A stretch of DNA of 64,000 bases from Bispira polyomma (GCA_965649765.1 OZ287757.1:9176001-9240000), one strand, 5' to 3'; counted from the stretch's first letter, positions 4,380 to 58,815 are shown. Notes: generated from the letters alone by a model not told the origin. Numbers and translations are program-made.

Positions 4380-7300
4380 ATATTACGTATGGCTGTGGTA
4401 TCTGACACCATGAGGGAATTTGCTTTCCGCCCATTGGGGAAGTGTTAGGTTGTCAAATGCTGGCTTCCTTGGACTGACTCCCTAGCCCTTGTGGCACATG
4501 GTCAGGCGCCCCAGCGCTCAGTATGCACGAAGCGGAAGGGGGTTAGGCTGTCCTGTAAGAACCATAGGTTCAGTGTGTCTCAAGTGTCTATGGTAAACAA
4601 AATGTGTGCCAATGGAACAAAGACACACATGTCAGATAGTCAAGCTAAACACAGAACAATATGTAAGGTATTTAACAATAGAAAGTGTTCTTATTGAAGT
4701 GACAATGGGAAATACATACACATATGTTGGCATTGTAATAAAGTTTCAGGCAAAGAATTTGCTCAACTCGAGTTGAAATGTTACAAAGAAAAGGGGACCA
4801 AACGGTCAGTGTTAGGGAGGTGTTCCACAGTCAGTTTACTGGACATTGACCGTTAGTACTGAGAGTAGGGCAGGAAATAGCAATCTTGTTGACAATAGTG
4901 ATGTAAAACTTAAAAGTTAGTAGTAGAAATAGATCACATGTCTAGCAATAGAATAGTGGTAGTAATTTGGTAAATCAGACAATGTCCAAAGTAAAGCATA
5001 ATAAGGATCTATGTGATTTGCATGTTTTGAATGGCAATAGCAACACAAATGTAATTCATAATAATACTGACTGTATAATTGAAAATACTCAATTTCAGGT
5101 TTATGATGGTATTACTCAGTCTAATGTAACAGGTCTGAAATATTATCTAGACATGCAGAATGAAAGTGCTAATAATCATAATGAAAAGCTTTGTCTGAAT
5201 TATGTGAAGGTCAGGATGTAAAAAAAGACGTGAGTGATGAAAACCTTTTATGTGGCAGCAGTCATGGTCATATCCCTAAAATTGCAATTACTCTAAATGT
5301 TTAGTCCACATTTCTATTACTAGTTGCCACCAATACTCCCCAACTTTGAACTGTGTGGCTTTAATATACTATGTTTTAAATTACCATAAACACATTAACG
5401 GTTTTCTTTATATACCATGAGATTACTGCTGCTGAATGCATATATTCCTCAAGTTAAAGTTTAATTCATGAGTTAAAAATTATTGGCATAAACTAACCAT
5501 TATTAGATAAGGAAATGGTAAAATTAAAAAAAGTTTTATTTTTTCAGTAATTATACAATTAAGCCTAACGATGTTGAACCAATTGGATTATTTTGTATCC
5601 TGATATACGTTTATTTAAGTTACTTCACTTGTAAATCGGCTATAAATCTAGGTTTACAACAACAGCTAGACACATTTGTAAATGAATGCAAGCTTACATA
5701 TTTTAGTAAAATCTTCTCTTTTGTCTACAAGTATATGATTTTATCAATGTTGTATTTATGTTACTTATCCTTTAAACACAGGTCCAATTCTCATTTGTTT
5801 GTGTAAGATTTTGTAAAGATGTGGAGATGCTTTAAGAATGAGCTTCCAACATTGTAATGAGGTCACATTACCTGGAATATTTATTGCTTCCTATCACTCA
5901 AGTTGAGGAATGTGTGATTCACAGGAAACAATTTATAAACATGGCAAGTCACATGACTCTTCCCAATACCATATTAGGCAATCTTCTGATCACATGACCA
6001 ATCAATGCATCAACTTTCACTTAACTTACTAAATCCCTGATCAAACCCTGACATCCATATTTGGCGTCTTACTTATGTTCTATGATCATATGACCAGTGT
6101 TTCCTTAGAATTGCAGAGATGAGATAAGCATAGCATTTGGGGCCTTGTGCCCAGAGTCTATAATAAAGAGCCAGTTATATCAGGCCTCACAGAAAAGTAC
6201 CATCAAGATTTAATATGATACTACAAGTGTTGTTTGTTAAATATTTTAAAGTTTGTTAAAAGAAGAAATAAAGTCTGATGAAAAAGCTTACACAATAGAC
6301 TATTATTACTTTGGACTTTTACTGTTGTCAAGCGGTGGAACCTGCCGGAAACACACAACTACCACAAAGCCAAATTTACAGAATTTACAGAAATCATGTC
6401 AGAGATGTATCTTGCTTTGAGCATCATGGGTAGGACTATACTGAATATATTCAAAGGGTTATTCATACTGAACCTGATGATAAATTTCATGAATGTGATG
6501 AGATGTCAAGAGAAGAAATGGCATCATTTACTTAAGTAAGTACCATTATCATGAAAAATATTTGTAGAAGTCGTTATTGCAATAAAATGTCTGTTTGTGC
6601 TTTCCACAATGACTTTTCCCAAAAACAACTGGATTTATAAACATCTCCTCTACAAAATTTGAATTTATAGGGCCATGTATTGCTTCCAGGGCTATTGAAA
6701 TTGTAGAAGGCATACCTTGACAAACTGCTACTTCAATGTATCAAATTTGGGTTTTCTGTTTCATAACCCCAGTACATTATTTAACAAGAAGGTTACCAAC
6801 CAAAACTCTGCTCTCCAATATCTGTGTAAGGAACAACAATTGAGTTCCATGTTAGGATGAGTTTCACAAATAAGCTTAGGCTGATATCATTGCTCTCCAC
6901 ATTTCACGCATCCTAAAGATGCAAGAGACGAGTCCTTTTATATTTGTGCCATCCACATGGTTCGTCAGTGAACGACAATGTAGCTAGGAAAGATTTGATT
7001 GGGTACTTTTTAAAATTGACATTGCACACACATTCAGGAACATATGTGTGGGCCTATCTGACAATCTCAAAGTAGGTATATTATTTGCAGAGGCATGTAT
7101 ATTGATCCTGTGGTTACATTCGACTCGGTCCGTCGTAAATCAGTGTTTTGATGCTGCTCTGATGCAAGAGTATCACATATGCTTCAACATGATTACGTCT
7201 TTGGTTATATAGACGATTATATTGCCGTTACAAGTGAAGACAAAGTGCAACAGGTTTTTGAAATTATTACCTAATTACTCAATGAGGACAAGCATACACA

Positions 7301-16500: not shown

Positions 16501-16833
16501 TTCCCACTTTCGACCCTCGCATCCACAAATCCAAAGTTCAGTTCAATCACTGCCTAGCTGATGATGGCCTCCTCATTTGGAACAGCCTACCTGATCATGT
16601 TCGCCTGGCTCAAACTTTCTCCTCTTTCAGGAGTAAGCTGAAGGCCTATCTTTTTGAACAGGCTTTTCCACCTTAGCCGTCGCAACCATCTACGGTAGTC
16701 TCTCTGGTTACGACTTCCATCCGCCCACTATTTTTGATTTGCGATTAACGGTTTGGGTTTGTTGCGCCGTAGAATTTGTTGTACAAAGATTAAGCGCTAT
16801 AAAAGTACGACTAGATTAGATTAGATTAGATTA
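13560..16833 (+). mobile_element. Near full-length L2-clade LINE (single ORF: APE endonuclease + RT), (GATTA)n tail
   Basis: APE motifs NARSLRNK, GITET, GDFNIH, GHTLD, IDHF. RT motifs NYRPVSGL, LLDLSAAFDTIDH, GVPQGSVLGP, YADDTQLY. C-terminal LHWLPI, LKAYLF. 3' stem-loop GCGCCGTAG..TTAAGCGC and tail TAGATTAGATTAGATTAGATTA. 5' boundary approximate. Confidence 0.92.
13937..16676 (+). pseudogene. Disrupted L2 ORF2 (APE-RT)
   Basis: Pieces in ORFs 13784-14431, 14560-15018, 15146-15907, 15908-16306, 15960-16676. Frameshifts, a TGA at 15905-15907 and an apparent deletion of the APE-RT linker near 15010. Confidence 0.9.
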
Positions 16834-17245: not shown

Positions 17246-17420
17246 ATATATGTGGGACAGTTAGAAGTTAACTTGCTGATGGTCAGTGGTTTGTAGAGCA
17301 GAAAATCTTGACTGACTACCTTGTTCTGATTTTAAGGCACCTATAAACGACGTATAAGTGAACATACATTGTCATGCTATCACATACCATGTCACAGCAG
17401 GCCCCCTCAGGGGACTGATA

Positions 17421-19530
17421 GTTCAGTCCACCTTAAAATTTATATACCTTACAACCTTAAATTTAGCTTTACATGTACACCCCAAAAATTGTGTATCAAC
17501 CTTTAGCCAATCATAGCCCACACACTTGCAGCTTAAGCTTCACTTTACAAACTCCATATTGAAATGGCCATTTTAAACTTCTATTTCAACAAGGCAAAAA
17601 GTGGAAAAAAATTTTGAAAGAAATTTAACAAATGAACTGTGATAAATTTCATTTTAATTGTTTTAAGTCTACATTCTTTTATACTGCTACATATTATATT
17701 ATATGTTGTGAAATATGGGAAGGACGAAGAAAACGCCTACACAAAGTACTGCAAAAAAAAACAAAGAAAAAGCCTTTGTCAACGAAACATGCAAAAAAAT
17801 GACAGGCATCAAATTTTATAATAATGAACCTCTATGGCCAGTTAACAACTTGTCTGAAATAATGGCAATATTACTGAGATTAGAGTCTTCTAACGCCAAA
17901 CTGTCAAAACAACTGTCAAAAGTCGAGCAGACAACTGTGGCAAATACAGGTATGTCACTGATACCACTATTATTGGGCCTGACTCACGGATCATCAATTC
18001 TCCAGATTAAAGCCACGGCTTCACTACCTACGGGACACCCAATGGTGACGTCTACAGCGAACATCGGCCTTGATGGTCAGATCATGTCTGTGGATCAGCC
18101 ACTGCTCGTGGGGACACAACCTATAGCCACACAGCATAATTTGGGAGCGTTTCTGACCATCAGCCAAGGCTGCTCACGTTCCGTCGCTGCCTGTTATGAG
18201 ACTTCCACCCACTTATATGCAGAACATTTGCCCCCAGATGTCAACGAATACGCAACCTGCTCCCACCGGGACTGGAATGGTACCTAGTATAGACGCGTTT
18301 CGTTCGCTGCCACATGTCCAGACAGAAGTATCCAGGCAGCTAGCACAGTACACAGCTATGGCTAATAGAGATTTTTCTCAGGGTAAGCCCTTATTAAAAC
18401 ATAAATCAGGTAGATTTTAATAGCACCGATGTAACTACAGTCGACCCTAGATTACGTTGGCCCAATGAGTGCTGGGAAGGCGGGTCAGTGAAGAAGAAGC
18501 CTGCATTTTTCGACTTATCGCTGGCCCAGTGGGCTGCAGGGCAGCTAGGAAACTCGCTTCTCGTTACAAATCTCAATGAGATGAGGGACATGATTAGACA
18601 GGTAATTTCTGCACTTCGGGACGCTTTGTCTCTTCCCTGGCATGTCGTCAGAACAGCATGGGCAGTTAGCATGCATGAGGTGGAGGAAGGTAGGCCACGA
18701 CACCCAGTGGGCACTTAACAGAATAAGTGCCTCAGAGATGGTCATGTTGAATGGTGCTTCTTCTAGTAATGTAACAAGTAGTAGTGACCCAAAAATGATA
18801 TGTAAACTTTATAACAATGGGAAATGTAGTTATAAAACAGATCACAGTAACTATAGGCACGTTTGCTGGCATTGTAGCCGTACCTTAGGGAAAGATTCCA
18901 ATCACCCGGAATTTAAATGTTATAGAGCAAATAGCAAGCAGTTAGTCAGTCAAACCAAAGTAAAGCAAGCTAGGACATTTTTCAACAACTAGTTAAACGA
19001 ACAATTAGAACTGAATGTAACAGCAGAATGGAGACAGTACATGAATTTAAAAACGACAAAGTCAATAGTAGTTCCAATGTAATGTGCGATAGAAATTATA
19101 TATATGATAAAGTATTTTATAGTGATAATGTGCATGATAATGGAAATGTTAACAGTAATTATATGGTTACCAATGTTCCTTCATCTTGTTACAGGAATGG
19201 GCCTGCAGCAGTAGACGATGATGTTATGAACATCCCTGTCAGATATGAGAGAAGTCAAAACATCTAATGATTTAATGTTTCTTCAAAATTTTCAGGCCAC
19301 TCATAATGACATCATACAGGGCTCTCAGCATGCACAAGATGACAATCAAGTCGTCAACGTAATCTCTTATAACTTGATTAAAGATGGTCATTATTCAAGC
19401 CATGTTGATTTCTAAGATAAAGATCTGCATTAATGCTTGCTGGATCAGGACAACAGTGAGTTACCAGACATAAGTGTCAGTGTTACAAACTGGAATCAAT
19501 TTCGTGAACATTGGCTCATCTGGGCTCCCA
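17421..19530 (+). mobile_element. 5' part of a YR retrotransposon (element D), relative of element F: terminus, gag, start of pol
   Basis: Starts GTTCAGTCCA like F. Frameshifted gag (17715-18992) matches F gag: MGRTKKTP, DLSLAQWAAGQL, CKLYNNGKCSYKTDHSNYRHVCWHC. Confidence 0.88.
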
Positions 19531-35999: not shown

Positions 36000-37698
36000 T
36001 TAAAGCCTTTTTGGCTTTTCCCTGCATGGTTTTATGAATATGGAAATTCTCACGTAATTGTTGAGGCACTAGGTAATCTCAGAGAAGCCTAGGTGAAGAA
36101 CCACTTAATTTAACAAAGTACCATTTATGACCATTATGGTCTCTGGTATATCTGGAAATTTTTTTAACCTCTGTGTTTGACTGTTTATTAGATGTGCTAT
36201 GATCATCTGTATGATCTTTAGTTTGATCCTTTGGCTAATCTTTGGTAGGGGAACTATCTGCATGTTCAACATTTGTGCTAGTAGCATTGTGTGTATTAGT
36301 GGGTCTCTGACTTGGGTCGAGACACCTTTTGAGCCTATTAGCATGAACACGGTTGCGTTGAAAGATATCTGTGTTGCACTGACGTACTAGGTATGTGTTA
36401 TTCTGGTTGCAATCTGTAACATAATAGGGACCTGCCCATTTGGGAATGAGCTTTGGTGACAAGCCTTTGATATTGTTGTGATTTGAAACATAAACATGAT
36501 CACCTTCTTTGTACTTGCACTCAGTTGCTTTCTTGTCAAAATAATTTTCAGACTTTTGTTGAGCATATGACAGATTTTGTTTGGCCTGCTCAGAAGAAAA
36601 AATTTTTTTTCTAAGTGATCATTGGGTTTGTGCAAGGTGTCGGTTGCTGTTGACAGAGATATGTAAATAGGGCGTGTACACTCTTGTCCAAACACAAGCA
36701 TGTATGGTGTGTGTTTTGTGGACTGTGTAGCTGGTGTGGTTCTGTATGCTAGCATGATAGATTGTAAAAACTCATGCCAGTTGTTTTGGTTTTTGTTACA
36801 TTGAGCCCGTAATCCCTGTAAAATGTAACTATTCATTCTTTCACATGAGGAATTTGTTTGTGAGTGGTAAGAGCTAGTACTAATTTTAACAATTTGAAAG
36901 AGTTTGCACAGTTCTTTTAGTATGGTTGACATAAAATTTTGACCTCTGTCTGTCAATATTGACTTTGGTGCTCCATATCTGCAAATAATTTCATCATAGA
37001 GTACCCTAGCTACAGTAGCAGCATCTGTGGATTTTAGTGGAAAAATCTCAGGCCACTTAGTAAAAGAATCTACAATCAGAAGTATATGTTTATGGCCTCC
37101 TGTAGTGGTTGGGAGCGGTCCCAAAAAGTCCATATGCAGTCTACCAAATCTTTCAGCAATGGGAAGTGGCTGCAGTGGTGCTCTAAGGGCATGGTAATTT
37201 CTTTTTAATTTTTGACAGACCTCGCATGATTCAACATACAATTTTGTGTCTTTTGACATAGTGTGCCACCAATATTTTGACTTCAAACGTTCATACGTTC
37301 TATTGAATCCTTGGTGGGACCCCATGGGACTGTCATGGTATGACTTGAGCAAATCATCTCTTAATGTGTGGGGAACCATGAGCTGTTTAATGAGACGGTC
37401 ATTTTTATGACCCTTACCCTTTGGAAAGTATCTGTAGTACAGAATTCCTTGTTCAACCTCATAGTCTGAATGGGTTGCTCGAATTTCTCTGACAAGCTTA
37501 TCATTGTCTGGTATAATTTTGTCTTCAATGAATCTAAGAATGGGACCTAAGTCAGGGTCACTGAGTTGCATGTACCTTATGTCATTCACTGATTTATTTG
37601 TCAACTGTTCTGCAAGATTTATTGAACTGATTGTACTGTATTGTTCTTCTGACTGAATCAGTTGAGTAAGCAGTGAAGGTGCTGTATTGTGTGGGCAC
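36000..37698 (-). pseudogene. Gypsy integrase (HHCC, DDE core, frameshifted GPY/F and C-terminal tail)
   Basis: HDSPMGSHQG..CEVCQ, LHMDFLGP, IVDSFTKW, LTDRGQNF, CERMN; WAGPYYV lies in a second frame. Confidence 0.92.
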
Positions 37699-40600
37699 TG
37701 TACACTGTCAATTTGTCCATTTATAAGAAAATGTCCATCTACAACACTTTGTTTTGCATAAATTTGGGGCTTGGTGGAAGAGCAGACTGAAATACAAAAC
37801 ACAAGCAGCTATCTGGTTTTATTTTATTCTCCATAATAATTCTATCACTTTATTTAATCATATAACATGTAAATACCATCTCATAATACTACTGTAAATC
37901 ATAAACATATACATACATACATATATATATATATATAACAATGCTTTCAAAAACGCAGCAACTCTATAAGCCTCTTGTATTACTAAAATCTACCAGTAAA
38001 TAATGTTGTTCAAACTTTTGTGTAGTGACATTAGCAAGACAGGTCATGTGTTGTATCAGTCGATGACCTTCCTTTGGTACACACAAACCCACATACATAC
38101 ACCACTCACTCTATAGGTATACAGATATTCTCTATTCCACACATGTATAATAATTATATGCCAAGCAGGTTGGTGTTTGCGATATACATATACAAACACA
38201 CCCACACACATTTAAGGGACATCTCTATATACCTTTTGTTGATAACATGTGGTGTAATATTTTCTGCACATATACAATGTATATATAGGTATGATTCATA
38301 ATATAGTACAAGAAGCTTTGTGAGAAACGTAAATCAATATCATACAATTCCCCCTTCATCCTAAGCACATATTATATACACACACACTTAAACAGACCAA
38401 AACTTGTGGTTTGTACATACATTCTACCAGTAGTATTTTATGTGGACAAACCAAAGATTTATATATTCTGCCATGGCCTTCACAGAAAATATTTCGTTGG
38501 CATTACAATATACACTGACTATTCTACACGAACAGAGTGTGTTTCTCGCCTTGTGAATCAATGAACAATAAAGTTGGGCAAATATGGCCGAGTTTGAATG
38601 AAGTGTGCGTGTATTGATAAACAAGTACTGGCCCAAAATGTGGTGCAATATTATTGGTAATGTACTGCTGATTAGTTGGTCGTAGTAACGGTGTATTAAT
38701 ACTGTCAATATATTGGACTTGTGTGCGTTGGAATTGTGTAGCATGTTTCAATGTGGTGATATTATTCATGGTTTACATTTTAAAGGTAGGTGACTTGTGC
38801 TGTTTTAATATGTTTTGTCTATATACGGCTGCCCATCTATTCAACATTGGCATAGGGGTGCCTTCTTTTGGACAAACTAACATTTGTTTTCAACAAATAA
38901 CTTTGTAAGTACATCACAAAACATGCTTGTCATTCATTGGTATAAACTTGTGAACATTTATTGTTATAATAAAACATTTGACCAAATGCAAAACATTCAT
39001 GTGTAATATACACCATCATTTGTTTTGGGTATACTCATAAAGTACCCATATATTGTCCAAACTATGTATATGGTAGCAGTATATAAATTCCGGGGTGGTA
39101 TTTAGAAAAGGAAGAAGTCTATAGACAGTACAAAAGTATGCTATATCTAAGACAAAAGCCTTTGCTTAACTCTTTAGTGAATACAATCCCTGACAGGTTA
39201 CAGTTAGGATTGTTTGATATTTGACCTCATGCTATCAAATTTAAATGTTTATATTTTCTGATACACTTTAAAAGTGCAATGTTTTATTTGTCTTTTATTT
39301 AATACGTCTTACTGTAATGTTGAACCCACACTTACTTGTCTTAAAGTTAGGTCTTCAGTGGCCGAGTGGTTAGCAAGTTTGGCATCTAATCACAGCAAGT
39401 TATATGTAGTTTTGACATTGATAAATAACTGTTTTCATCAATTCAACTGAAAATCTGAAAAATTAACAAGATGATACATTAAATTTGGCATGGCAATAAT
39501 ATACAGTGTTCAGTCGCAAGAGAGTGACAACATTTTTTTCAAGGTTGTAACTGTATGATTGGCTAGCAATTATGGACAGTGAACCAGTTATGGTCAACAT
39601 GAACATTTTATGCTTCATAATTGGTGGATTGATCCACCATTAAAAACAGCAATCAATTTGTAACTAAATATTAAGAGTGTCCATAATTTCTAACCAAACA
39701 TAAAGTTTGGGTGTGTATTGCATTCGTTTGTAATGGAACAATACAGATATGTAAATGACAATAAATTCATGTACCACCACCCTGCACATTATGTCTATTG
39801 TTTATTATTCCTGGTCAAGATATGTCAAAATCAACTTCACTGTACATATTTAAAATATTACACTGTTCATTGTATGACACTTTCTATCCTACTTATTTTA
39901 TATGTAATGCAATTTTATGCCCATCATTGGTAAATATTACTGAATATAAGTGATGTAGTTGAACACATTATTGTGAACTATATGTGGTTGGTTGTAGATG
40001 AAATGAAAGCATACTGAAAGATTTTTGCTGATCCCATGTGAGAATCCATGGGGATCAGATCCCTTATTGTTGTATTACATGATAACATGTATGTGGCTAA
40101 ATAATTTATTTTGTAACTATTTTGTTTTCTTAACCATGTAATGTGTTCCTCAAAAAAAAACAAGTTACTGATTTCGGTGTAACTTTGACCTATGTTGTAA
40201 CAGATACATAATATGTTTAATGCATGTCACCAGGTGCTTACATTATGTTGAGGATGTCAATGTCAGAGTTATAAACAGGAACAGGTCAATTCTTTATATA
40301 AAAGTATCAAATGTTTGTGTCTCCATAATGTGCAGGCTCTCCATTGCTTGTCGGCAAGGGTTGAAAGATAAAGCAATATAGTAAGCGAGTCAGAACGTAT
40401 AAAATTGTATGCATATATTTCAACCTTGATATGAATGTAAAAAGTGACACAGCATCTGTTAGGCTCACGTTTCTGTCGCATATAAGCTATGACAATCTTA
40501 CAATACAGATATACACTATTGATCATTGTTCTATTGTGAAAATAAATGTTGCTTATCTAAATTATACCACTGACATTATAAATTAAATGAATGACTCATT

Positions 40601-47735: not shown

Positions 47736-50700
47736 AGTACATTAGCCCTTGTTAGGTGCCTAGTAGGATCAAAACAGTTTGAAGTTGAAGGGGTTAAGTT
47801 GGAAATTCTGAGAAAACCAAAGAACACAAATGATATTGTTGTTCTATAAAGTTCAGGAAATGCCAAGGTTAGACAGAGTTTTGATATTTGTTGGAGTTGG
47901 TAAATATCCAAAATCCCTTTTGGTTTCGGGATGAACCTTGAGTTGATTGCTAGAGATTTCTGGTACATGGCAATCCTATGAGTATTTTGTATGTGCAGCA
48001 ATTTGCGTGTATGACGAATGGCTGCTATGTAATTGTTAATAACTTTAAAAGAAATGTTTGATTGATGGAGGTACTCCATAAAAGCAATCAGTGAAGTGAA
48101 AGAGAAATGATCTTCTATGTTATGGTAGACCATAAAGGCCATGTACAGTCTAAATTGTTTGTCATATTGGCATCTTGTCCTTGGTCGTTGACTGTCTTTA
48201 ATCTTCATCATAGCATCGGATACCAAAGCTCTGATGGCTGGGGAGTTACCTACAATTATATATCGTTATTCATCAAGAACCATTCCACCTTAACTTCTTT
48301 CATCACGAAATTGTTAATTATATTATTTTTCATTTCATAACAACGAGAACCTAAGTTGTGCCATCTAGAGAGTATATCTGCTATTACATTCTTTTTTCCC
48401 ATTATGTGTCTAATATTTATGTTAATATTGTGCCCTGCACAGATCAACCATCAATTCCTAAAGCATGTACTTAAATAAAGGTCCCTAGTTTTGGAGGACT
48501 GCACCACAGAGACATCTGCCGCATTGTCTGATTGTATCCTTACTGTCTTATCTTTAAATTTGTGTTTCCACAGTCTTACAGTCACAAGGAGGCTGATCAT
48601 TTCAAAATGAGCTATGGACAAAGATTGCTTCATACATAAGGGAGTAAAGTAGTGAAAACCTCACCGTCAGATACTCCCCCAATGCCGTCAACGCAAGCAT
48701 CTACTTGTAAATGTACTGTCTGTTCTATGTCGCCACTTTGATATTTTGTTGTCCCATTATAGTCGAATAAAAATTTTAGAAACCAGTTTAAGTCCTTCTT
48801 AAAGTCCTGAGTTAAAGTTATCACTTTTTCATTTGTTGCATTTCTTAGTATGCTCAACATCCTGTTGATAAAAGTCCCTGCTGGCTTTATGCACCTATGT
48901 ATGTATAGTAATTTGCCTAGCAAGGACTGGTATTTACTTTTCTTCACTTTTGTCAGGGGGATAAACTCCACACACATTTCGTGTATTGATTCTAATTTTT
49001 CCTGATCGATACTTGGTGTTTTTTCTCGCACGTCTATTGTTATCCCCATACATGTTACTCGTGTACTGGGGGGACTGTTTTCATTGATGGGGAGACCAAG
49101 GTCACGTAGTACTTTCTTTAAAAAATCAAAAAGCTGAGGTGGCCTTATCTTGGGACTCTGCAATTACAAAATCGTCGATGTAATTAAATGCCTTAAAGTC
49201 AAGACTTTTCATAATTTAAGTTACTGCGTCTGACGTTCTCATAAAGACGGCCGTCCTGTGGGTGAGGCCAAATGCAAGCGTTGAATCAACATAAAATTGT
49301 TGTTTCCAATTATAGCCGAGCTTAAGGCAATCTAAAGGATCGACCCTTATATTCCTAAAAGCATGGGCCACGTCCACCGTTGCTATTCTCACTGAGGGGT
49401 CAATATGGTTAATATGCTGAACAATCTGATCTATTGTTGGCAATCTTAAACTGAATTCAACGTCATCATATGCGCTTTTAATTGTACAATAATTAACTGA
49501 TGCCCCACTTGGGTGAGACAGATTCAAAATAAGCCTTCTAGTTCCGTCGTCCTTTGGACGAGTTAAAAGGGGGGAATAATGTACTTTATTGTCCCCAATG
49601 TACTAATTGGGCCGACAATGGTGCCTTTATTCAGTTCTTTCTGAAAGTATTTGTCAACATATTCGGGGAATTGTAGCGCTGAGTAATGGTTTTGAACATT
49701 TTTTGTTTGCAAGCGTGTTCTCTCATATATCGATATAGGAAAACCGTACTCAAGATACTGCAGCAAAAGCTGGTCAGGGTAGTCTCTTAAATAATGTTTC
49801 CACTGGTCTATGTTAAGACCCGACATGAGTGGAATTCTAGCACTCTTATAATTTGACTGGCATGTTTGCTTTATTATGTCAGCTATTTGTGTAAGAGTGG
49901 CATAGTCTTTAATGTCGACAGGTTCTCTCCAGGGACCTATGAACTCAAAATTTGTATTACCCTGACGGATATACCCGTACTGCCTTACTGAATCACAACC
50001 CTTTACACATTTAGTGTCTTGTTCAAGTCCACCTACTTGTAGTAAATGATCCACTCTATGTTCACTACTGTCCATGTCTGCCTTATTGATCTTATTGCTA
50101 CTGTCACCACCTAAAAGTCCATTATTGTCCCAAATCCTTTTTGTTTCTTGTCGAGTAAGTGTCCTATTTGATGTGATATGATGAGTGTGTTCTGTAGCTG
50201 CTTTAGATGTGTAATGCCTATGTAATAATGTGTTTGACCAATCTTTGTTCTGACATGTGATGTTATTTTCTGTTTATGTCTGTGTGTCTATTTCTATTAT
50301 TGTATTTGGTCGTTTTGTCTGTCTGAGTGTAAGTCTCTATGTTATTTGAAGTTTGTATTAACATGTCTGTTTGTGTACAGTATGTCAAAGGCCATATGTC
50401 ATTTGTGTTATAGCCCTCTTTGTTAATTCAACCTGCAATACATTATTATGACATAATTCATATACTCCATTCAAATTAGTTTCAGCTTTACACATTAAAT
50501 AATACAATTGGTTAGCATTACAACTAGTATAACAGCTACTATATACATCTACAGTTACCCACTTTTGCACATTGTTTTGATTCCCACAGTTATCACCTTG
50601 CACTGTATCAGTGGCTAAATATGTGACATTGTTCATGAGCTTTAACTTATCTATACTCTTATTATCTAAATTAGAAATTTGTTTGTCTTTTTCTACAATA

Positions 50701-51170
50701 TTTAATTTATTTACTATGCTAATCTCATTGCCATTGTTTTTGGTGAACCAATCTTGACCATAGTTCCCACTATCAACACTAACTACTCCAGTGACAGCTC
50801 CCTTCAGATGCAGTCTCCTGTCCTATTGTACTGGTGTACTCCCCATCTGGGGTTTACCATTGATCTTAAAACATTTTGATTCTGGGTGATTATTCTCCCG
50901 GATGCGAACACTGACCCTTTTGGTAGTGCCTACAAGGCATGCGCATTTTCGTTGCTTTGATGGTCATCGAGGCTGATATGGAAGCCTGAGAATATGAAAT
51001 CCTGTTCATACTCCACTTGGTCTAATCAGCCCAAGTCAGTCGTCCCTCCTCAAGGTCATGCATGTTGCTAGCATAGGTAGCTTTTGCAAATTGCCATGAA
51101 ATGTTATTTGCGTCACGCAAGGTGTCCCCCAATTGCTTTTGCACAACACGACTACTCTAGGGGTCTGTTA
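47736..51170 (-). mobile_element. Degenerate YR retrotransposon (element G): gag C-half, pol, 5' half of YR
   Basis: DTLRDANNISW..HDLEEGRLTW, LQYLEYGFP, LTRPKDDGTRRLILNLSHP, VDVAHAFRN, NYIDD, LQVDAC, SDNAA, ADILSR, FFGFLRISNL. Confidence 0.9.
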
Positions 51171-51449
51171 GTTCAGTCCAACATAAGATTTAGCCAACCT
51201 TAAAAATTTTAGGTTACACATAACCTTTATTTTCCTGTTTATGTGACAACCTCCAATCAAATTCAAGTTCAGTCACCCATGACCGCTCCCCTCCATTTTG
51301 TTAGCATTATTAACTGGAGATTTGAACGAGCAACACAGACATTTTGAAAACTGGAATGTATATAGTATTTTTATTTGTGTTATTTTAGTTTGTTTTTAGT
51401 TTTATACATCCAGTAATTATTTATGTATAGTGTGATCCATAAGAAGAAA

Positions 51450-52847
51450 ATGGGCAAAACAACGAAGAAAACGCCAGTTACAAGGGCGAACAAAGCTAGG
51501 ACTAAGAAGAGCATGGTAATTTCTACAGACCTCAGCAAAGGTCAGCAGGTATCAGACTTTATAGTTTCCGAGGTTCAAGCTCAGTTAACTGCCTTAGTGG
51601 CTAGACCTCTCGAACCGTCTCTAGAATTCTTGTCCACAACTACTACCAACTCCGGGGCCGCTTATGGTCAGGTCACACCTCCACGTGCACCTAATAACAT
51701 CACCAAGTCTTTATTGCCATATACTCTGGGCTACTCGACTGCAGACAGAGACCTTCCTTATGCTGGGGTTACACCTTCACGTTTGCAGACTCCGTCGGGG
51801 GCGACTGTTATTCAACCATTCATGGCGAGTCAACAGCCCATGTCGAGCGTTACTGTTAATACAGACAGCTCATCAGAGATGCTGGCTATACTCAGACAAC
51901 TGGAAACTTCGAACGCAGAACTCAGTCAGCGAATCAGTAAGGTTGAAACGACTCAGACCCAACAAGCGTTACTTACTAGGCCTGCAGCAGATACCACAGG
52001 AACACACCACTCCACGTTGGCAGCTTTGGCGTTAGTAGCTCCACCTCCGTTATGTCACATGTGGGCGTTGAATCCAGGTCCAACCGCATTACCCTCAGGT
52101 CATCAGGATTTTGCTAAGGACGGCGTGGTTCCACAACTGGACACTCTTCGGGCGATACCAGCTATACAGGCCGCCATAGCCAGGCAGTTAGCGGGGTATG
52201 AGACCAATATCCAGAGAGACATTCTTCAAGGTAAGGCTCCAGTAAAACAGACATCTGGGCGTTATAACAGTTCTGACATTTCCACAGCAGACCCCAAATT
52301 TCTATGGCCGAATGAGGGGTGGGTAGGCGCTAACGCGAAACGGAAACCGACTTTTGACGACTTGTCTTTGGCGCAATGGGCGGCTGGGCAGCTTAACAAT
52401 GCTCTTCTAGTAGCAGACCCTGTTTTGATGAAAGGTATGATCCAGCAAGTAGTTCACACACTCAGGGACGCGGCAGCTCTTCCCTGGCCAGTGGTTCGCA
52501 CGGCCTGGGGCCACAGTATGCAGGAAATAGAAGAAGGGCGACTTACATGGGACAACCAAATGCAGTGGGCTTTAAATAGATTGAGTGAATCCCAAATGGC
52601 ACTAGTAAGCAATACTGGGAACAATGGTAACAATGATCTGAGTAAGGGGAAACAAAATGAATTTAAGACGATCTGTAAGTTATACAACAATGGGAAATGT
52701 TCTCACAAAACCGACCATGCTAATTACAGGCACATTTGTTGGCATTGTTCGAAAACACTTGGCAAGGATGCAGTGCACCCTGAGTTCAAATGCTTTAAAT
52801 TCCAGGCCAATCTGAACAAGAACCCAGAACAGTCAAATAATCGTTAG
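51450..52847 (+). CDS. gag: Gag-like protein with C-terminal Cys/His fingers
   Basis: Open frame (upstream ATG also at 51423). MGKTTKKTP matches element D. WPNEG, FDDLSLAQWAAGQL, CKLYNNGKCSHKTDH..HICWHC..HPEFKC. Confidence 0.88.
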   Translation: MGKTTKKTPVTRANKARTKKSMVISTDLSKGQQVSDFIVSEVQAQLTALVARPLEPSLEFLSTTTTNSGAAYGQVTPPRAPNNITKSLLPYTLGYSTADRDLPYAGVTPSRLQTPSGATVIQPFMASQQPMSSVTVNTDSSSEMLAILRQLETSNAELSQRISKVETTQTQQALLTRPAADTTGTHHSTLAALALVAPPPLCHMWALNPGPTALPSGHQDFAKDGVVPQLDTLRAIPAIQAAIARQLAGYETNIQRDILQGKAPVKQTSGRYNSSDISTADPKFLWPNEGWVGANAKRKPTFDDLSLAQWAAGQLNNALLVADPVLMKGMIQQVVHTLRDAAALPWPVVRTAWGHSMQEIEEGRLTWDNQMQWALNRLSESQMALVSNTGNNGNNDLSKGKQNEFKTICKLYNNGKCSHKTDHANYRHICWHCSKTLGKDAVHPEFKCFKFQANLNKNPEQSNNR

Positions 52848-55564
52848 GGACAATACCGTCAGCCAATCAGCGAATCGGAAGTGTATAGTATTAAGCAGGA
52901 AAGTAGTATAATTTGTGTCACTAGTAAGGAAGGTAAACAAATTAGTAGTAAAATAAATAATGATGATCTTAATGCCAAGACTAGTTCGAACATTGCCAAT
53001 AATGTTCACATGCAGGTAGTGGAGAACACACCAAGGGAGCATTATGATACTGTGAATGATTTAAAAAATTGTAGAAAGGTAGTTAATTGTTTACAGGAAA
53101 ATTTTGAAGATACTAATCCTATTTTATCAGTCAAGTTTTATGGTAAAGATACTGGTTGTACTACCGGTGAAACTATTCAAGTGCATATATCTGTTACAAA
53201 TTTATCTGAAATTTCTAGTTACGGGGGAGTCAAAGCCCCAGTGGTTTATATTCAGAGTGAAAATAAGAACTTTAGCAAGGGCTTCTATTGCCTTTGTCAC
53301 TGTGCTACATACAATTGTATGGTATATTCTCCAACAGTTGTTAATTCAACAGGTGAACTGCAGATTATAGATTCATATGAAGCTGAAATTTGGTGGGAAG
53401 ATAGCATAATAGGAAAAATTCAACCTAGCATTGCTAATTATTCTTATGATATCAGGCAACAAGCAAAAAATTGTTACTATTACCATGAAAGAGATTTGCA
53501 GTCCTCTGTTCAACATAATTATAACTATACTTCTTATATAGAAAATGTTATTGATGTCTTAATTAAGCAGTCACAGGCAGCAGATGTCTGTCATGTCAAA
53601 GATAGTCAAAATGTAAATAAAATGATTGTTAATAAAAGCAAGCAGGTAAAGGTGAGTAGTGACGACTTACCGTATTCACATACGCATCCGTCTGTCTTCT
53701 TCGAAAATTGTCATAGCACAAACATCCAGGTAGACAGAAATACTACCAGTTCTGGTAACACTGACATTAATAATCCAGACAAGACTACAGGATTCATGGC
53801 AATTTCTTCCACAAAATTTGAATTTATAGGTCCTGACAGGAAACCTGTGAACATTGACTCGGTAGGAAAAATGATTGAAATTGGCAAGTTGGTTAGTGAC
53901 ACTGAGGTTCCTAACTGCAAAAAAGCCAGGTATCCAATCATTTCAGGTTTGAACCCAAGTGCTTGGGAAAACATTTTTTCTGATTATCCTGACCAGCTGG
54001 TAATCCAGTATGTTAAATTTGGATTTCCTTTAAGTTTTACTAATCCTGATAGCTTAAACAATGTAAGAATAAAAAACCACTTCTCTGCTTTACAATACAC
54101 TAAGGCTGTAGGTCAATATCTAGACAAAGAGAAAGACATTGGAGCTATGTTGGGCCCAGTCAAAGCCATTCACTGTACACAATTACATTGTTCTCCATTA
54201 TTAACCCGTCTGAAAGATGTTGACAAAAGGCGAGTAATTTTGAATCTCTCTTATCCCCAGGGCGATTCCCTGAATGACAACGTTAACAAAGTACAGTTTG
54301 ACGGGGTAGAATTTTACATGAATGCTTTGTTTTTGATGCTCCCATTGTTTGGAATGGTCTTCCTGATGTGATTCGTGCTTCCCCCTCACTAGCCTGTTTT
54401 AGAAAGAAGCTTAAAACCCACTTGTACACTAAAGTATATCCACCTTAGTCTCAATCATCCCCCGGCGCGCTCTATGTTGCCGACCCTTTTTCTGTCCCTT
54501 GATTTTGGAAATTGGATAACTGTCTTTTGTGCTGGTGCGCCTTAGAGTCCCCTTTGTTAAGGGGAGATTAAGCGCAATAAAAGTCTAATTACAATTACAA
54601 TTACAATGAATAAGTCAGGTTTTAATTTACTTTGCTACATCGATGACTACATATGTATCACACCTAAACATAAGGCTAAGGAAGGCTTTGAAATTTTGAC
54701 AGATTTACTATGTAAATTAGGTCTCCCACAAACAGCGAGAAACTCACTCCATCCACACAGACTATGACATGTCTGGGCATAGATATTGATATACAGAAGG
54801 GCGCAATTTCTATCACTAAAGAAAAAATTACCCAAATTTGGGATCTATGTTTGGAAATTTATAATAAAAAATTTATTTCAAAAAACAAATTTCAATCCTT
54901 GTTAGGTAGTCTGCTGTACATTCACAAATGTGTGAAGCCAGCGCATACTTTCATAAATAGACTCTTAATAGCATTAAGAGGCAATACTGACAAGCGCATT
55001 AAGGTCAATGCGAACATGAAAAGTGATTTACAATGGTTTGTAAAATTTCTGCCTTCCTACAATGGAGTCACATATATTAACCCCACCATAGTTTTGCACG
55101 CTAACGAACTACATCTGGACGCTTGCCTCACAGGTTTTGGAGGCGTTTGGGGCGACCAGGTATATGCAACTCCGATACATAACGTTTACAACCGAGACTT
55201 AAATATTGCACATCTCGAGATGTTAAATATTATAATAGCTATTAGAATCTGGGCGAATGACTGGGCCCACAGCAAATTAAACATTCATTGTGATAACATG
55301 GCTGTAGTATTGGTTGTCGGATCCCAAAAGACTAAAGATGACTTCTTAGCACTCTGTTTAAGGAACTTGTGGCTAATAGCAGCAGTACATGATATAACAC
55401 TTACTATAGAACATATTCCTGGGAAACAAAATATTACAGCAGACGCTTTATCTAGAGTATACTCACCTAACCCTCCTTGTGTGGAAATGATGGAGGCATT
55501 AAACAATAATTTTTAATGGAAACAAGTTCCATTGGAACACTTTAACCTTAATTTATCTGTGTAA
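52848..55564 (+). pseudogene. pol: Pol (N-terminal unknown region, RT, RNase H), disrupted
   Basis: YVKFGFPL, CSPLLTR..KRRVILNLSYP, CYIDDY, LHLDAC, HLEMLN, CDNMAVV, ADALSR. Carries an L2 insertion, an RT-core deletion, a frameshift near 54730 and a premature TAA at 55514. Confidence 0.9.
54324..54605 (+). mobile_element. 5'-truncated L2 ((ATTACA)n family) inserted in F pol
   Basis: FDAPIVWNGLP..FRKKLKTHLY..YPP*, stem-loop and (ATTACA)3 tail; flanked by ATGAAT at 54318-54323 and 54606-54611. Confidence 0.9.
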
Positions 55565-55570
55565 TTGCAG

Positions 55571-56547
55571 GCTCTACCAACCTCAGTAGCCAATTTGTAG
55601 CCTCAGCCTGGAACAGAATTGACACTGCCATCAGACCAAAGACAGCTAGTGCTTATAAGTCACAATTTAGTACCTTTCTGGCATTTAATTATTTTGTTGG
55701 CATTTATCAAGTAACTGTACATTCAGTACTGGTATTTCTAGAGTATCTGGTTCAAGCAGGGTTATCACCCAGGGCTATAAACAACTATGTAGCTGCCATT
55801 AAATACATGATACAAAAATATCAACTAGACACTACACCAGTATCACACAAATACATTCAATTATTCTTGAGAAGCTTGACACATAATTCAGCTTTCAAGC
55901 CAAAACACAAAGGCATTTTCGACATACAACAACTGGCTAGTATTTCCAAGGCTTGCAATATTCTGGAAGATCAATTATTGTTCAGGGCTATATTCCTCAT
56001 GGCATTTTTTGCTTTCTTGAGACTGTCTAACATAGCAGCACACTCAAAATCGGCCTTTGACCCTACCAGACATTTCCTTAGGCAGGACCTATTATTTAGA
56101 CCACCTGGGGCACATATAACACTTAAGTGGGCGAAAAACTTACAAAACAGATCTGACACACACATAATACAGATTCCTGAACTTCACAATACTATATTGT
56201 GCCCTGTATTAGCTTTAAGGAAATTGCTTGCTTCCTGGAATCTTGCACACAGAGCACCATTATTTGCAACGGCTACCCAACCTTTCTACCCTGTGGTGGA
56301 TTCTCATGTGAGGGCAGCTCTCCAAAAAATTTTAGAACACATTGGCATTGAATACAAATCACATGGCTTTCATACTTTTCGAAGATCTGGAGCTACATAC
56401 GCATTCAACAATAATGTTTCATTACAGAATATAATGTCACATGGCTTATGGAGGTCTTCAGCTGTGTGGACCTACTTGCAACAGACTTCAGAAGCAGCTT
56501 CTGTTGTCCCCCTCACTTTTGTTTCCACCATTCCTCCTTCCTCTTAG
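55571..56547 (+). CDS. Tyrosine recombinase (intact frame, no ATG until 55807; probably a spliced 3' exon)
   Basis: Stop-free frame from 55552 to 56547. Catalytic set LRLSN, KWAK, HTFRR, HGLW, WTYL. Preceded by TAATTGCAG|G. Confidence 0.9.
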
Positions 56548-56555
56548 TTGGGCTT

Positions 56556-57983
56556 GGGTATCAAAAAATTTCAAAATAATTTTAAAATTTTTATTACTTT
56601 ACATCTTATCTGTACATGTACATATATACTAATGTGTAAAAAATAAAATCCTCAAACAGAGTTCCATTGACTTATAAATTCATTCCAACAAACTTCTTTG
56701 GGAATCATCTTAACTTATTGCTTTCACATCTTAGAACTTGGACTGAACATAGCCCTCGCTGTACCTGCATTCCTGACCTCTAAAATATTTTGTATTTGCT
56801 CTGATGCAAATTGTGACACCGTTAAATCATCATATGAAGAACTTTTCTTACTTATACCAACCAGACAACTCTCATTAGGCCACCTCACCTCACCTACAGG
56901 ACGTAGAGTAATATAGACTGACTCTAGGGTAGCTAGGCACTCTTAGGCTGTCACTAATGTCAGAAGTTCGCTTCAAGTACTTCAATAAATGATAAAATAT
57001 ATTTATAAACTGCAGTGCACTAGTATTGCTAAATAACAAAAAATTAATAATTTAGATTCTTACACCATTTACTTTCCCTTTTCCCCACCTACAGGATGTA
57101 GAGTAATATAGACCGGCTCCAAGGGAGCTGGGCACTCTTGGGCGGTCGCCATTATTAGAAGCTTGCTTCAAGTATTTAAAAATTGCTGGATATGTAGATG
57201 ATGTATGTGATTATAAATTTGTGTATTAGTTGTCTTAGTAAGGCAACTTTATTTGAATGGCCATGATTATGGCTTGATTAATGCCCAGTACAGGGGTAAT
57301 AGTGTTTATTCTAACAATCAGTTTATGCCAGGTTTATGGCCATGTACTGGGTTAGGAACTAGTTCGCTAGTATGTTCAGGGGAAAGATTCGGTTAGGCGT
57401 TGCCTTATGGATATATAACACACCCTGTGCTTCTGTTATGTCAAAGCGAGTTAAAATGGGGCTAGTCCCTCAGATTTTAATGAAGTTATTTTAATTATCT
57501 TAGTATATTATTATTATGTTGCTGGTAATAATTACTTGTATAAACACTATACAACATTATAGTATTATGTCTTGCATACGTGATCCTACTGTATTATTTG
57601 ATGAAGGGATCTTAATGTTAATATTCTATGTTATTGGTATGGCACTTGTTAGCGGGTATCAAAAAATTTCAAAATGATTTTAAAATTTTTATTACTTTAC
57701 ATCTTATCTGTACATGTACATATATACTAATGTGTAAAAAATAAAATCCTCAAACAGAGTTCCATTGACTTATAAATTCATTCCAACAAACTTCTTTGGG
57801 AATCATCTTAACTTATTGCTTTCACATCTTAGAACTTTGCCTGAACATAGCCCTCGCTGTACCTGCATTCCTGACCTCTAAAATATTTTGTCTTTGCTCT
57901 GATGCAAATTGTGACACCGTTAAATCATCATATGAAGAACTTTTCTTACTTATACCAACCAGACAACTCTCATTAGGCCACCT
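56556..57983 (+). repeat. 330-bp direct repeat (56556-56885 and 57654-57983) flanking a 768-bp unrelated segment
   Basis: Offset 1098 bp with four mismatches noticed. The repeat spans the F right end and 137 bp of antisense gag. Confidence 0.92.
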
Positions 57984-58815
57984 GTACTGGGGGTCTGTAG
58001 TGCATTTTTCGGATGTGTTAAAATGTCCTAATCTTTTCTTTGAATAAAGCTTACTATGTAAGATGTCATCCGACGCCATGGACTCATACTGGGCCAACCT
58101 GTGATTCACCTCATTCTGTATAAGCGCAGAATGTTGTAAGATGTCATTAGAGGGGTGTATGTCGCGAACTGATTTGTGTGACAACTCCTGTGGCCACTGT
58201 CATTTGAGCGAGTGCTGGGCAGGCCTGTCTGAGTTAATGGGTGTTCTGTATGTACCCCACTGAGGTACATACAGAGGTTCTCTCGCTTGATGAGCTTCTT
58301 GCGAGTGCGAGCTACCGAGGGTGGGAAGTCCCTGCTGCCAATCATCCTGGCGGCATGAATTTGGTCTTGAGTGCCGGGTTGGCACGGCGAGCGTTGGTTG
58401 TGAACTAGTAACGAGTTGACGCGTACGTTTCTGAGGGGGAAATCTAGAACTCAGGGTAATATCAGCATTGTAACTCACATTTCTTTGTAGGTTGTCCTCA
58501 TGCACTCCTGTACCAGATGATTTCATGATGTCCTCGTGAATGGCAGGCTCCCTGTCCTTGGCTTTCAATTGGGTGATGTCCTTCTGTTGTGTGGATACTG
58601 ATTTGAGGCTGGTATCCATCATCGCTTCCTGCTTTCTACACATACGTTCATACATAAAAGTACCATTATCATCTTCACTTGGTACTTCATCATTAGCCTC
58701 TATTTCGTTGTCACTAATAATTCCTTCCGTGACTACAGTTTTTAACACTTGATTTCTTACACACCTTTTGCCTACAGGCCGTTCGTGTTTAATTTCACAT
58801 TTGTAGACCTTCCTT
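57847..58815 (-). pseudogene. DIRS/Ngaro-type gag N-terminal half (element E)
   Basis: CEIKHERPVGKRC (~58760-58800), IQNEVNHRLAQYE, DPQYRWPNESCLVG..SYDDLTVSQFA..NILEV. Confidence 0.82.

What the first reader, a model, noticed from the sequence alone, without database searches (positions are those of the whole stretch)
52830..52900. gag and pol in one frame separated by a single UAG-G: candidate stop-codon readthrough
Seen: F reads CGT TAG GGA CAA TAC..., and the same frame stays open for about 500 codons into RT. G reads CAA TAG GAC AGG... (TAG at 50825-50823) and is open in frame into ORF 50636-50385; a GACAG..CTGTC stem is possible just downstream. Decayed copies retain TAG-G at the same place but out of register with their gag: D TAGGAC at 18971 (in frame with ORF 19028) and B TAGGGAGGT at ~4813. 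Established: gammaretroviruses such as MuLV make Gag-Pol by readthrough of UAG followed by G and a downstream structure, whereas described DIRS/Ngaro elements usually have overlapping frames. Inference: this family uses readthrough. Combined with the spliced third gene, this would be a retrovirus-like expression scheme in a YR element.
Basis: partly seen in the sequence, partly recalled or inferred. Interest (0 to 1): 0.75.

Follow-up and report, generated by a model that had tools for sequence, protein, structure and literature searches.

The report
Retrovirus-style leaky stop in a retrotransposon
A jumping gene of what is probably an invertebrate animal keeps its coat-protein gene (gag) and its reverse-transcriptase gene (pol) in one reading frame, split by a single stop codon at a fixed place, so ribosomes likely read through that stop now and then, as they do in mouse leukaemia virus.

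Summary
Confirmed. In copy F of a multi-copy tyrosine-recombinase retrotransposon (Ngaro-like: gag, RT/RNase H, recombinase, no methyltransferase), gag ends at TAG 52845-52847, next base G, and the frame stays open into RT. The stop is a family feature: 26 of 44 gag homologues end 12-18 residues after the zinc finger (F: 17). In several database relatives the stop position holds Q, W or Y (one base from TAG), mostly before a G-starting codon; two run from gag into the RT core as one protein. A distant relative has an in-frame UGA-C instead. The post-stop region encodes a conserved domain with no fold match, and no conserved start codon. The TAG looks a poor splice acceptor. No downstream hairpin or pseudoknot is supported; copy D is one base off, copy B ambiguous; F itself is dead. 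Readthrough is the best explanation (about 0.68) but no RNA or protein data were available, and Tca2 shows that such junctions can mislead. A spliced gag-recombinase message is predicted as well. Eight library searches found no report of readthrough in these elements.

The parts
51140..51449 (+). 5' end / leader of element F
   Evidence: similar to the leader of copy D (17393-17711); contigs join 51139 to 56746, which looks like the empty target site
51450..52844 (+). gag of copy F (465 aa) with C-terminal Cys/His finger
   Evidence: 14 homologues at E<=0.001, 1578 by profile; no Pfam match
52227..52237 (+). predicted phase-1 splice donor (CAAG|GTAAGG, GT at 52231) inside the conserved Q-G-K codons of gag
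   Evidence: GT at the same codons in 5 window copies; QGK-like motif in 65 of 88 gag homologues with the neighbouring motif; not seen in RNA
52845..52848 (+). gag stop TAG followed by G: candidate readthrough site
   Evidence: 17 codons after the last finger Cys, as in many homologues
52848..53170 (+). unconserved, Asn/Ser-rich linker, open in the gag frame; first in-frame ATG at codon 55
53170..53595 (+). conserved N-terminal pol domain (five beta strands, then two long helices), no fold match
   Evidence: profile of 30 relatives matches F at E 1.8e-11; models; searches
53790..54315 (+). conserved pol core from the GF..T.F.FIGPDR motif into the N-terminal part of RT
   Evidence: 50 homologues at 48-70% identity, most with RVT_1
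54324..54607 (+). inserted 3' fragment of a very high-copy non-LTR repeat ending in short tandem units; about 90 RT codons are missing here
   Evidence: depth jump and loose ends; translation; comparison with homologues
54608..55564 (+). rest of RT (YIDD at 54636-54647) and RNase H; broken by a frameshift near 54720 and a premature stop at 55514-55516; ends TAA 55562-55564; no methyltransferase
55540..55572 (+). predicted phase-1 splice acceptor (TAATTGCAG|GC, AG ends 55570) in frame with the recombinase
   Evidence: AG-free for >40 nt upstream; same motif in G; not seen in RNA
55571..56547 (+). tyrosine recombinase ORF without its own early ATG
   Evidence: Pfam Phage_int_SAM_1 above cut-off, Phage_integrase E 8e-4
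50385..50825 (-). copy G: TAG-GAC (50825-50820) and 145 open codons
18971..19267 (+). copy D: TAG-GAC and 97 open codons, one base out of register with its decayed gag
4813..4818 (+). copy B: TAG-GGA, out of register, ambiguous

Best explanation
This Ngaro-like retrotransposon family has gag and pol in one frame with a single stop codon at a fixed place, and it likely makes its reverse transcriptase by occasional ribosomal readthrough of that stop, giving much Gag and a little Gag-Pol. Shown: the in-frame stop, its fixed position, the coding nature of the region behind it. Inferred: that a near-cognate tRNA decodes the UAG; that the 3' G (UAG-G here, UGA-C in a distant relative) is the selected signal; that no stable RNA structure is needed or that it lies beyond what folding detects. 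Predicted second step: the recombinase is made from a spliced RNA joining a donor in mid-gag to an acceptor at the end of pol, which completes a gag / gag-pol / spliced-third-gene scheme like that of gammaretroviruses.
For: (1) Fixed stop: 26 of 44 homologues with a whole finger end 12-18 residues after it; 43 of 43 further listed cluster members with a finger end at their family's position; none of the best 150 profile hits is longer than 434 aa. (2) Not a private lesion: in three DNA runs the element is multi-copy and no other letter is listed at 52845-52847, whereas F's premature stop at 55514 is listed (only 40 of 1597 rows shown). (3) Stop-lost relatives: P0212 and P0167 run from the gag finger into the pol core as one protein; P0094's tail matches the pol N-terminal profile (E 7.5e-6 among 21 targets). 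At the stop position of their nearest stop-ending relatives, P0212/P0140, P0094, P0072 and P0087 carry Q, Y, W, Y, then G, G, G, D: one-base neighbours of TAG followed by G-starting codons; rough chance 1e-4 for four families; W fits TAG but not TAA, Q and Y fit TAG but not TGA. (4) Distant relative L001 (33% identity in the pol core, gag profile E 2e-9) has gag-TGA-C-pol in one frame; a TGA cannot be a splice acceptor, and UGA-C is the Sindbis context (PMC2194720, background section). (5) The post-stop region is coding: conserved domain, F matches at E 1.8e-11, confident fold. (6) No conserved start: first in-frame ATG at codon 55, 63, 19 in F, G, D; none in P0094's 143 post-stop residues, first at 82 and 137 in P0212 and P0167.
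Against: No RNA, ribosome or protein data. No structure after the stop: z -1.04 or higher, no long-range stem, no H-type pseudoknot in F, G, D, although MuLV needs one (PMC8310308 passages). Of 5 junctions read as DNA, 3 are in frame (F, G, L001), D is one base off and B is ambiguous. Stop-lost proteins can only be found if in frame, so they do not measure how often families are in frame; P0072, P0087 and P0036 are not shown to continue in the pol frame, the stop position in P0167 and P0036 is uncertain, and 2 of 9 long tails (P0096, P0100) look like frameshifts. The database proteins may all come from one or a few assemblies (contig lengths recur). UAG-G is not a leaky context on its own in mammalian reporters (recalled). 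In Tca2 a similar junction did not direct readthrough in a reporter (PMC2194720, abstract).
Confidence: 0.68

Rival explanations
1. Pol is made from a spliced RNA: a donor in gag or in the leader joins an acceptor at the TAG|G itself, in the linker, or at the conserved FIG motif.
For: The element probably splices already for the recombinase. The FIG codons read YAG|G in phase 1 in F, G and B (3 of 3; ATA is 36 of 106 Ile codons, so about 4% by chance). Acceptor-like sites exist in every linker. Earlier scan notes describe splicing to pol in other YR elements (unchecked).
Against: At the gag TAG the AG-free stretch is only 13, 6, 2 and 4 nt and pyrimidines are 6-8 of 20, against >40 and 37 nt at the recombinase acceptors of F and G (B: 2). 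L001 has TGA. Linker acceptors share no phase or place. Splicing at FIG would drop a conserved domain, and splicing would not keep the frame open back to the stop.
Confidence: 0.12
2. Pol is translated separately, by reinitiation after the gag stop, an internal entry site or an internal promoter, as found for the Tca2 junction in yeast.
For: Each window copy has some in-frame ATG in the linker; Tca2 precedent (PMC2194720, abstract); L1 ORF2 reinitiation (recalled). Some called pol proteins begin with residues like those just behind the stop, but the caller also writes GTG/TTG as M.
Against: No stop-start overlap; first ATG in any frame 113, 62 and 42 nt after the stop in F, G, D; no Met column is conserved before the domain; this route would not need the shared frame or the G after the stop.
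Confidence: 0.12
3. The UAG is edited in RNA (A to I, read as Trp), as at the amber/W site of hepatitis delta virus (recalled).
For: UAG is a preferred ADAR context (recalled); copy B has a hairpin around its TAG (z -2.6 at +/-60 nt).
Against: No duplex around the stop in F, G or D (z -0.8 to +0.9), and F's best duplex within the element is matched by 3 of 20 shuffles; B is decayed and out of register; UGA-C in L001 fits poorly.
Confidence: 0.04
4. The TAG is a chance nonsense mutation in a single gag-pol ORF, or TAG is a sense codon in the host.
For: A few relatives do read through as one protein.
Against: These are single copies (clusters of 1-2) while multi-copy families all stop; no long fusion found. 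0 TAG against 84 Gln codons in 1538 other codons of F, and the recombinase ends at TAG.
Confidence: 0.02

Closest known systems
Ngaro retrotransposons (order DIRS, tyrosine-recombinase retrotransposons); PMC9210276, PMC4157794, PMC3783388, PMC8547959 (passages found by keyword)
   Same: gag, RT/RNase H, recombinase in that order on one strand; no methyltransferase; no protease or DDE integrase found.
   Different: The passages describe ORFs that frequently overlap (all overlap in the Xenopus Ngaro families); none mentions an in-frame stop between gag and pol. This family has an extra ~300-370-residue pol N-terminus with a conserved domain. Split direct repeats were not found in copy F.
Moloney murine leukaemia virus gag-UAG-pol readthrough; PMC8310308 (passages), PMC2194720 (background section)
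   Same: Single in-frame UAG after the gag zinc finger, G next, purine-rich first 8 nt (6, 7, 3, 6 of 8 in F, G, D, B); a third gene reached by splicing is predicted here.
   Different: No pseudoknot or stable stem found; the domain behind the stop is not shown to be a protease; the third gene is a recombinase fused to part of Gag, not env; readthrough is measured in MuLV (about 5%) and not here.
Tca2 (Candida albicans) and SIRE1, LTR retrotransposons with in-frame stops; PMC2194720 (abstract and background)
   Same: Retrotransposon ORFs split by one in-frame stop.
   Different: They are LTR/DDE elements; in Tca2 the flanking sequence did not direct readthrough in S. cerevisiae and held a minor promoter.
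Sindbis-type UGA-C readthrough with 3' stem-loop; PMC2194720, PMC8310308 (passages)
   Same: The distant relative L001 has UGA-C, with a possible stem (z -2.3 over 100 nt).
   Different: One sequence only; the stem is not significant at 60 or 150 nt or in the duplex test (p 0.085).

Membership tests
Ngaro-like YR retrotransposon | gag, RT/RNase H and tyrosine recombinase ORFs in that order on one strand | tested here: met
Ngaro-like YR retrotransposon | no methyltransferase domain after RNase H | tested here: met
   full-length relatives end about 36 residues after the RNase H-like match, no MT family in Pfam; F ends at the same motif
Ngaro-like YR retrotransposon | split direct repeats A1-ORFs-B1-A2-B2 | tested here: inconclusive
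   no second copy of F's 5' end in the window; a 330-bp direct repeat after the recombinase includes flanking gag of another element; contig depth is 2-3 times higher at both ends than inside
Ngaro-like YR retrotransposon | RT phylogeny within the Ngaro clade | not testable with these tools
   no named reference sequences were available to the session
DIRS1-like / PAT-like | methyltransferase domain in pol | tested here: not met
DIRS1-like | inverted terminal repeats with internal complementary region | tested here: not met
   no inverted repeat joins the two ends of F
MuLV-type readthrough signal | single in-frame UAG between gag and pol, followed by G | tested here: met
   F and G; indirect in stop-lost relatives
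MuLV-type readthrough signal | 8-nt purine-rich spacer followed by a pseudoknot | tested here: not met
   spacer purine-rich in F, G, B but no H-type pseudoknot in F, G, D by a simple scan, B's matched by 30 of 100 shuffles; no stable stem
MuLV-type readthrough signal | Gag-Pol fusion protein made at a few per cent | not testable with these tools
   no RNA holder listed; needs reporter, profiling or proteomics

The most novel reading that the evidence does not exclude
A lineage of tyrosine-recombinase retrotransposons has independently arrived at the full gammaretrovirus expression plan: Gag from the genomic RNA, Gag-Pol by stop-codon readthrough (UAG-G here, UGA-C in a distant branch, without a pseudoknot), and the third gene by splicing out pol, with a domain of unrecognised fold sitting where retroviruses have their protease.
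Probability: 0.5. Interest if true: 0.75.

Novelty: new variant of a known kind. Interest (0 to 1): 0.62.

Why it matters
How DIRS-order elements make their RT and recombinase from start-less or overlapping ORFs is not settled in the papers seen. An in-frame, family-wide stop gives a directly testable answer for this Ngaro-like lineage and would extend programmed readthrough from retroviruses and a few LTR elements to a retroelement order with a different integration chemistry. A UAG-G signal working without a pseudoknot would be a new readthrough context; annotation pipelines would also be miscalling pol as starting at the first ATG.

Tried and rejected
No whole genome was held. DNA of relatives: gag-profile scans of metagenome, viral and genome contigs found nothing; pol-profile scans found one locus and none in the other two. 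A search for long gag-containing proteins found none, which the tool calls weak evidence. No RNA holder listed. The read-laying run covered 6.2 kb, so the letters at the junction were not tabulated. Folding, long-range duplex and pseudoknot scans gave no conserved structure; covariation could not be tested because the four window junctions do not align behind the stop. Fold searches for the N-terminal pol domain gave no match (best Z 5.3 on helices only; best Z 3.8 for the beta part; no Foldseek hit at E<=0.001); the protein atlas gave no usable hit; this shows neither a new fold nor a protease. Copy B was rejected as evidence. A tree of 47 gag fingers places stop-lost proteins in several sub-branches but most deep forks are unsupported. 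Literature searches found no paper on readthrough in YR retrotransposons; the founding Ngaro papers and the 2015 review (recalled) are not in the library and were not read, and no supplements were read.

Full report
Observation. Copy F has a gag ORF (ATG 51450) that ends AAT CGT TAG at 52845-52847; the next base is G and the same frame is open for 507 codons. Between the stop and the conserved pol core lie 327 codons with no stop, against 16 and 53 in the other frames and at least 10 in each of 20,000 shuffles. F is nevertheless a dead copy: a very high-copy repeat fragment is inserted at about 54324-54607 with loss of about 90 RT codons, there is a frameshift near 54720 and a premature stop at 55514-55516. 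G has TAG-GAC at 50825 (minus) with 145 open codons; D's TAG-GAC aligns to F's with a one-base gap; B's TAG-GGA is out of register and its gag frame has another stop further on, so I set B aside.

What the element is. The ORFs are gag, RT/RNase H and tyrosine recombinase. Full-length relatives end shortly after RNase H with no methyltransferase, and no inverted terminal repeats were found. By the definitions in PMC9210276 and PMC4157794 (passages) this is Ngaro-like; split direct repeats were not found in F and no reference tree could be made, so membership is likely, not proven. The window's other repeats (non-LTR and Gypsy-like pieces, 29-45% GC) suggest an invertebrate host (inference).

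Is the stop real and conserved? Ten of the first 14 gag homologues have a whole finger and end 14-17 residues after it; F ends after 17. Among 44 homologues with a whole finger, 26 end after 12-18 residues, 9 after fewer than 12 or 19-30, and 9 run on for more than 30. All 43 further listed cluster members with a finger end at their family's position. None of the best 150 profile hits exceeds 434 aa. In three DNA runs that hold the element, summed contig depth inside F is 300-1800 in the two runs where unique-looking contigs have 11-18 (the tool warns that this is no copy number); the table of other letters lists F's premature pol stop but nothing at the gag stop (40 of 1597 rows shown, so this is modest evidence). 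TAG is not a sense codon here: 0 of 1538 other codons against 84 Gln codons.

Is the frame shared in relatives? No DNA could be fetched for the close database relatives, but single decayed copies that lost the stop act as a natural test. P0212 and P0167 run from the gag finger through the linker into the pol core in one protein. P0094's tail matches a profile of the pol N-terminus. Laid against their nearest stop-ending relatives, P0212/P0140, P0094, P0072 and P0087 have Q, Y, W and Y exactly where the stop stands, followed by G, G, G and D; these are single-base neighbours of TAG followed by G-starting codons, rough chance 1e-4. Limits: such proteins can only be found when in frame; P0072, P0087 and P0036 are not shown to be in the pol frame; the stop position in P0167 and P0036 is unsure; two long tails look like frameshifts; and these proteins may come from few assemblies. 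The one related DNA locus found, L001, is distant (33% in the pol core; gag profile E 2e-9) and again has gag and pol in one frame across a single stop, now TGA-C, with a short linker. Of five junctions read as DNA, three are in frame.

What lies behind the stop. Long relatives carry about 280-390 residues before the pol core. After an unconserved linker there is a conserved domain; a profile of 30 relatives finds it in F at E 1.8e-11, and AlphaFold gives five strands and two long helices at pLDDT mostly 80-96. No structural match was found. No methionine is conserved ahead of it: codon 55, 63 and 19 in F, G, D, none in P0094's 143 post-stop residues.

Mechanism. A fixed in-frame stop, an open frame right from the stop, a conserved start-less domain, and stop contexts that resemble two known readthrough types point to readthrough (0.68). 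MuLV reads through UAG at about 5% with an 8-nt purine spacer and a pseudoknot (PMC8310308 passages; PMC2194720 background). Splicing is the main rival because the element probably splices for its recombinase: a phase-1 donor in the Q-G-K codons of gag (GT at 52231; same place in five window copies) fits a phase-1 acceptor at the pol stop (AG at 55570; same motif in G). But the gag TAG lacks an AG-free, pyrimidine-rich approach, L001 has TGA, and linker acceptors are not shared. A YAG|G at the FIG motif in three copies leaves room for an additional spliced form. Reinitiation or an internal promoter remains possible, and Tca2 is the warning: its similar junction gave no readthrough in a yeast reporter (PMC2194720 abstract). 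RNA editing has little support.

Novelty. Eight searches of the held library returned no paper describing readthrough in DIRS-order elements; keyword passages of PMC6681497, PMC3783388, PMC8547959, PMC9210276, PMC4157794, PMC7192593, PMC2632668 and PMC12440569 speak of overlapping or frameshifted ORFs or say nothing on the point. The founding subscription papers were not available and no supplements were read. Earlier notes of this scan report similar in-frame stops in Ngaro-type elements of a protist and a diatom-like genome and spliced recombinases elsewhere; they are unchecked leads, not support. Verdict: a real, conserved feature; a new variant of a known recoding scheme in a retroelement order where it seems unreported; mechanism inferred.

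Noticed in passing
window 52231 and 55570 (F); 48250 minus (G); donors also at 18379 (+), 2816, 47643, 58050 (minus): Predicted gag-to-recombinase splice: phase-1 donor in conserved Q-G-K codons and phase-1 acceptor right at the pol stop, in frame; relatives' recombinase ORFs start with the same I-x-G residues (P0247, P0251).
   Followed up: partly
window 53170-53595: Conserved beta-strand plus helix domain at the N-terminus of pol, where retroviruses have the protease; no Pfam, atlas or structure match; absent from the distant relative L001.
   Followed up: partly
window 51139/56746 and 57825-58814 (minus): Element F appears inserted, in opposite orientation, into the gag of a related element (G); contigs in all three runs join 51139 to 56746 as if the site were empty. 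Nested insertion into a relative may reflect target preference.
   Followed up: partly
window 56556-56885 and 57654-57983: 330-bp direct repeat (99%) made of F's 3' end plus about 140 bp of the interrupted gag, 1098 bp apart; origin unexplained (local duplication or assembly).
   Followed up: partly
window 53829 (F), 49937 minus (G), 6670 (B): The conserved FIG codons of pol read as a phase-1 YAG|G in all three copies: a possible extra acceptor.
   Followed up: partly
L001 376-470: UGA-C followed by a possible stem (z -2.3 over 100 nt), like alphavirus readthrough signals; single sequence.
   Followed up: partly
window 54324-54607 and 2275-2350: The same very high-copy repeat 3' end has inserted into two different copies of this element family.
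   Followed up: no
window 4795-4860: Copy B has an 11-bp hairpin stem around its TAG (z -2.6), not seen in other copies.
   Followed up: partly
window 13748-16676 (+), 36235-37808 (-): A decayed non-LTR (endonuclease-RT) element and a Gypsy-like integrase fragment, by translation only.
   Followed up: no
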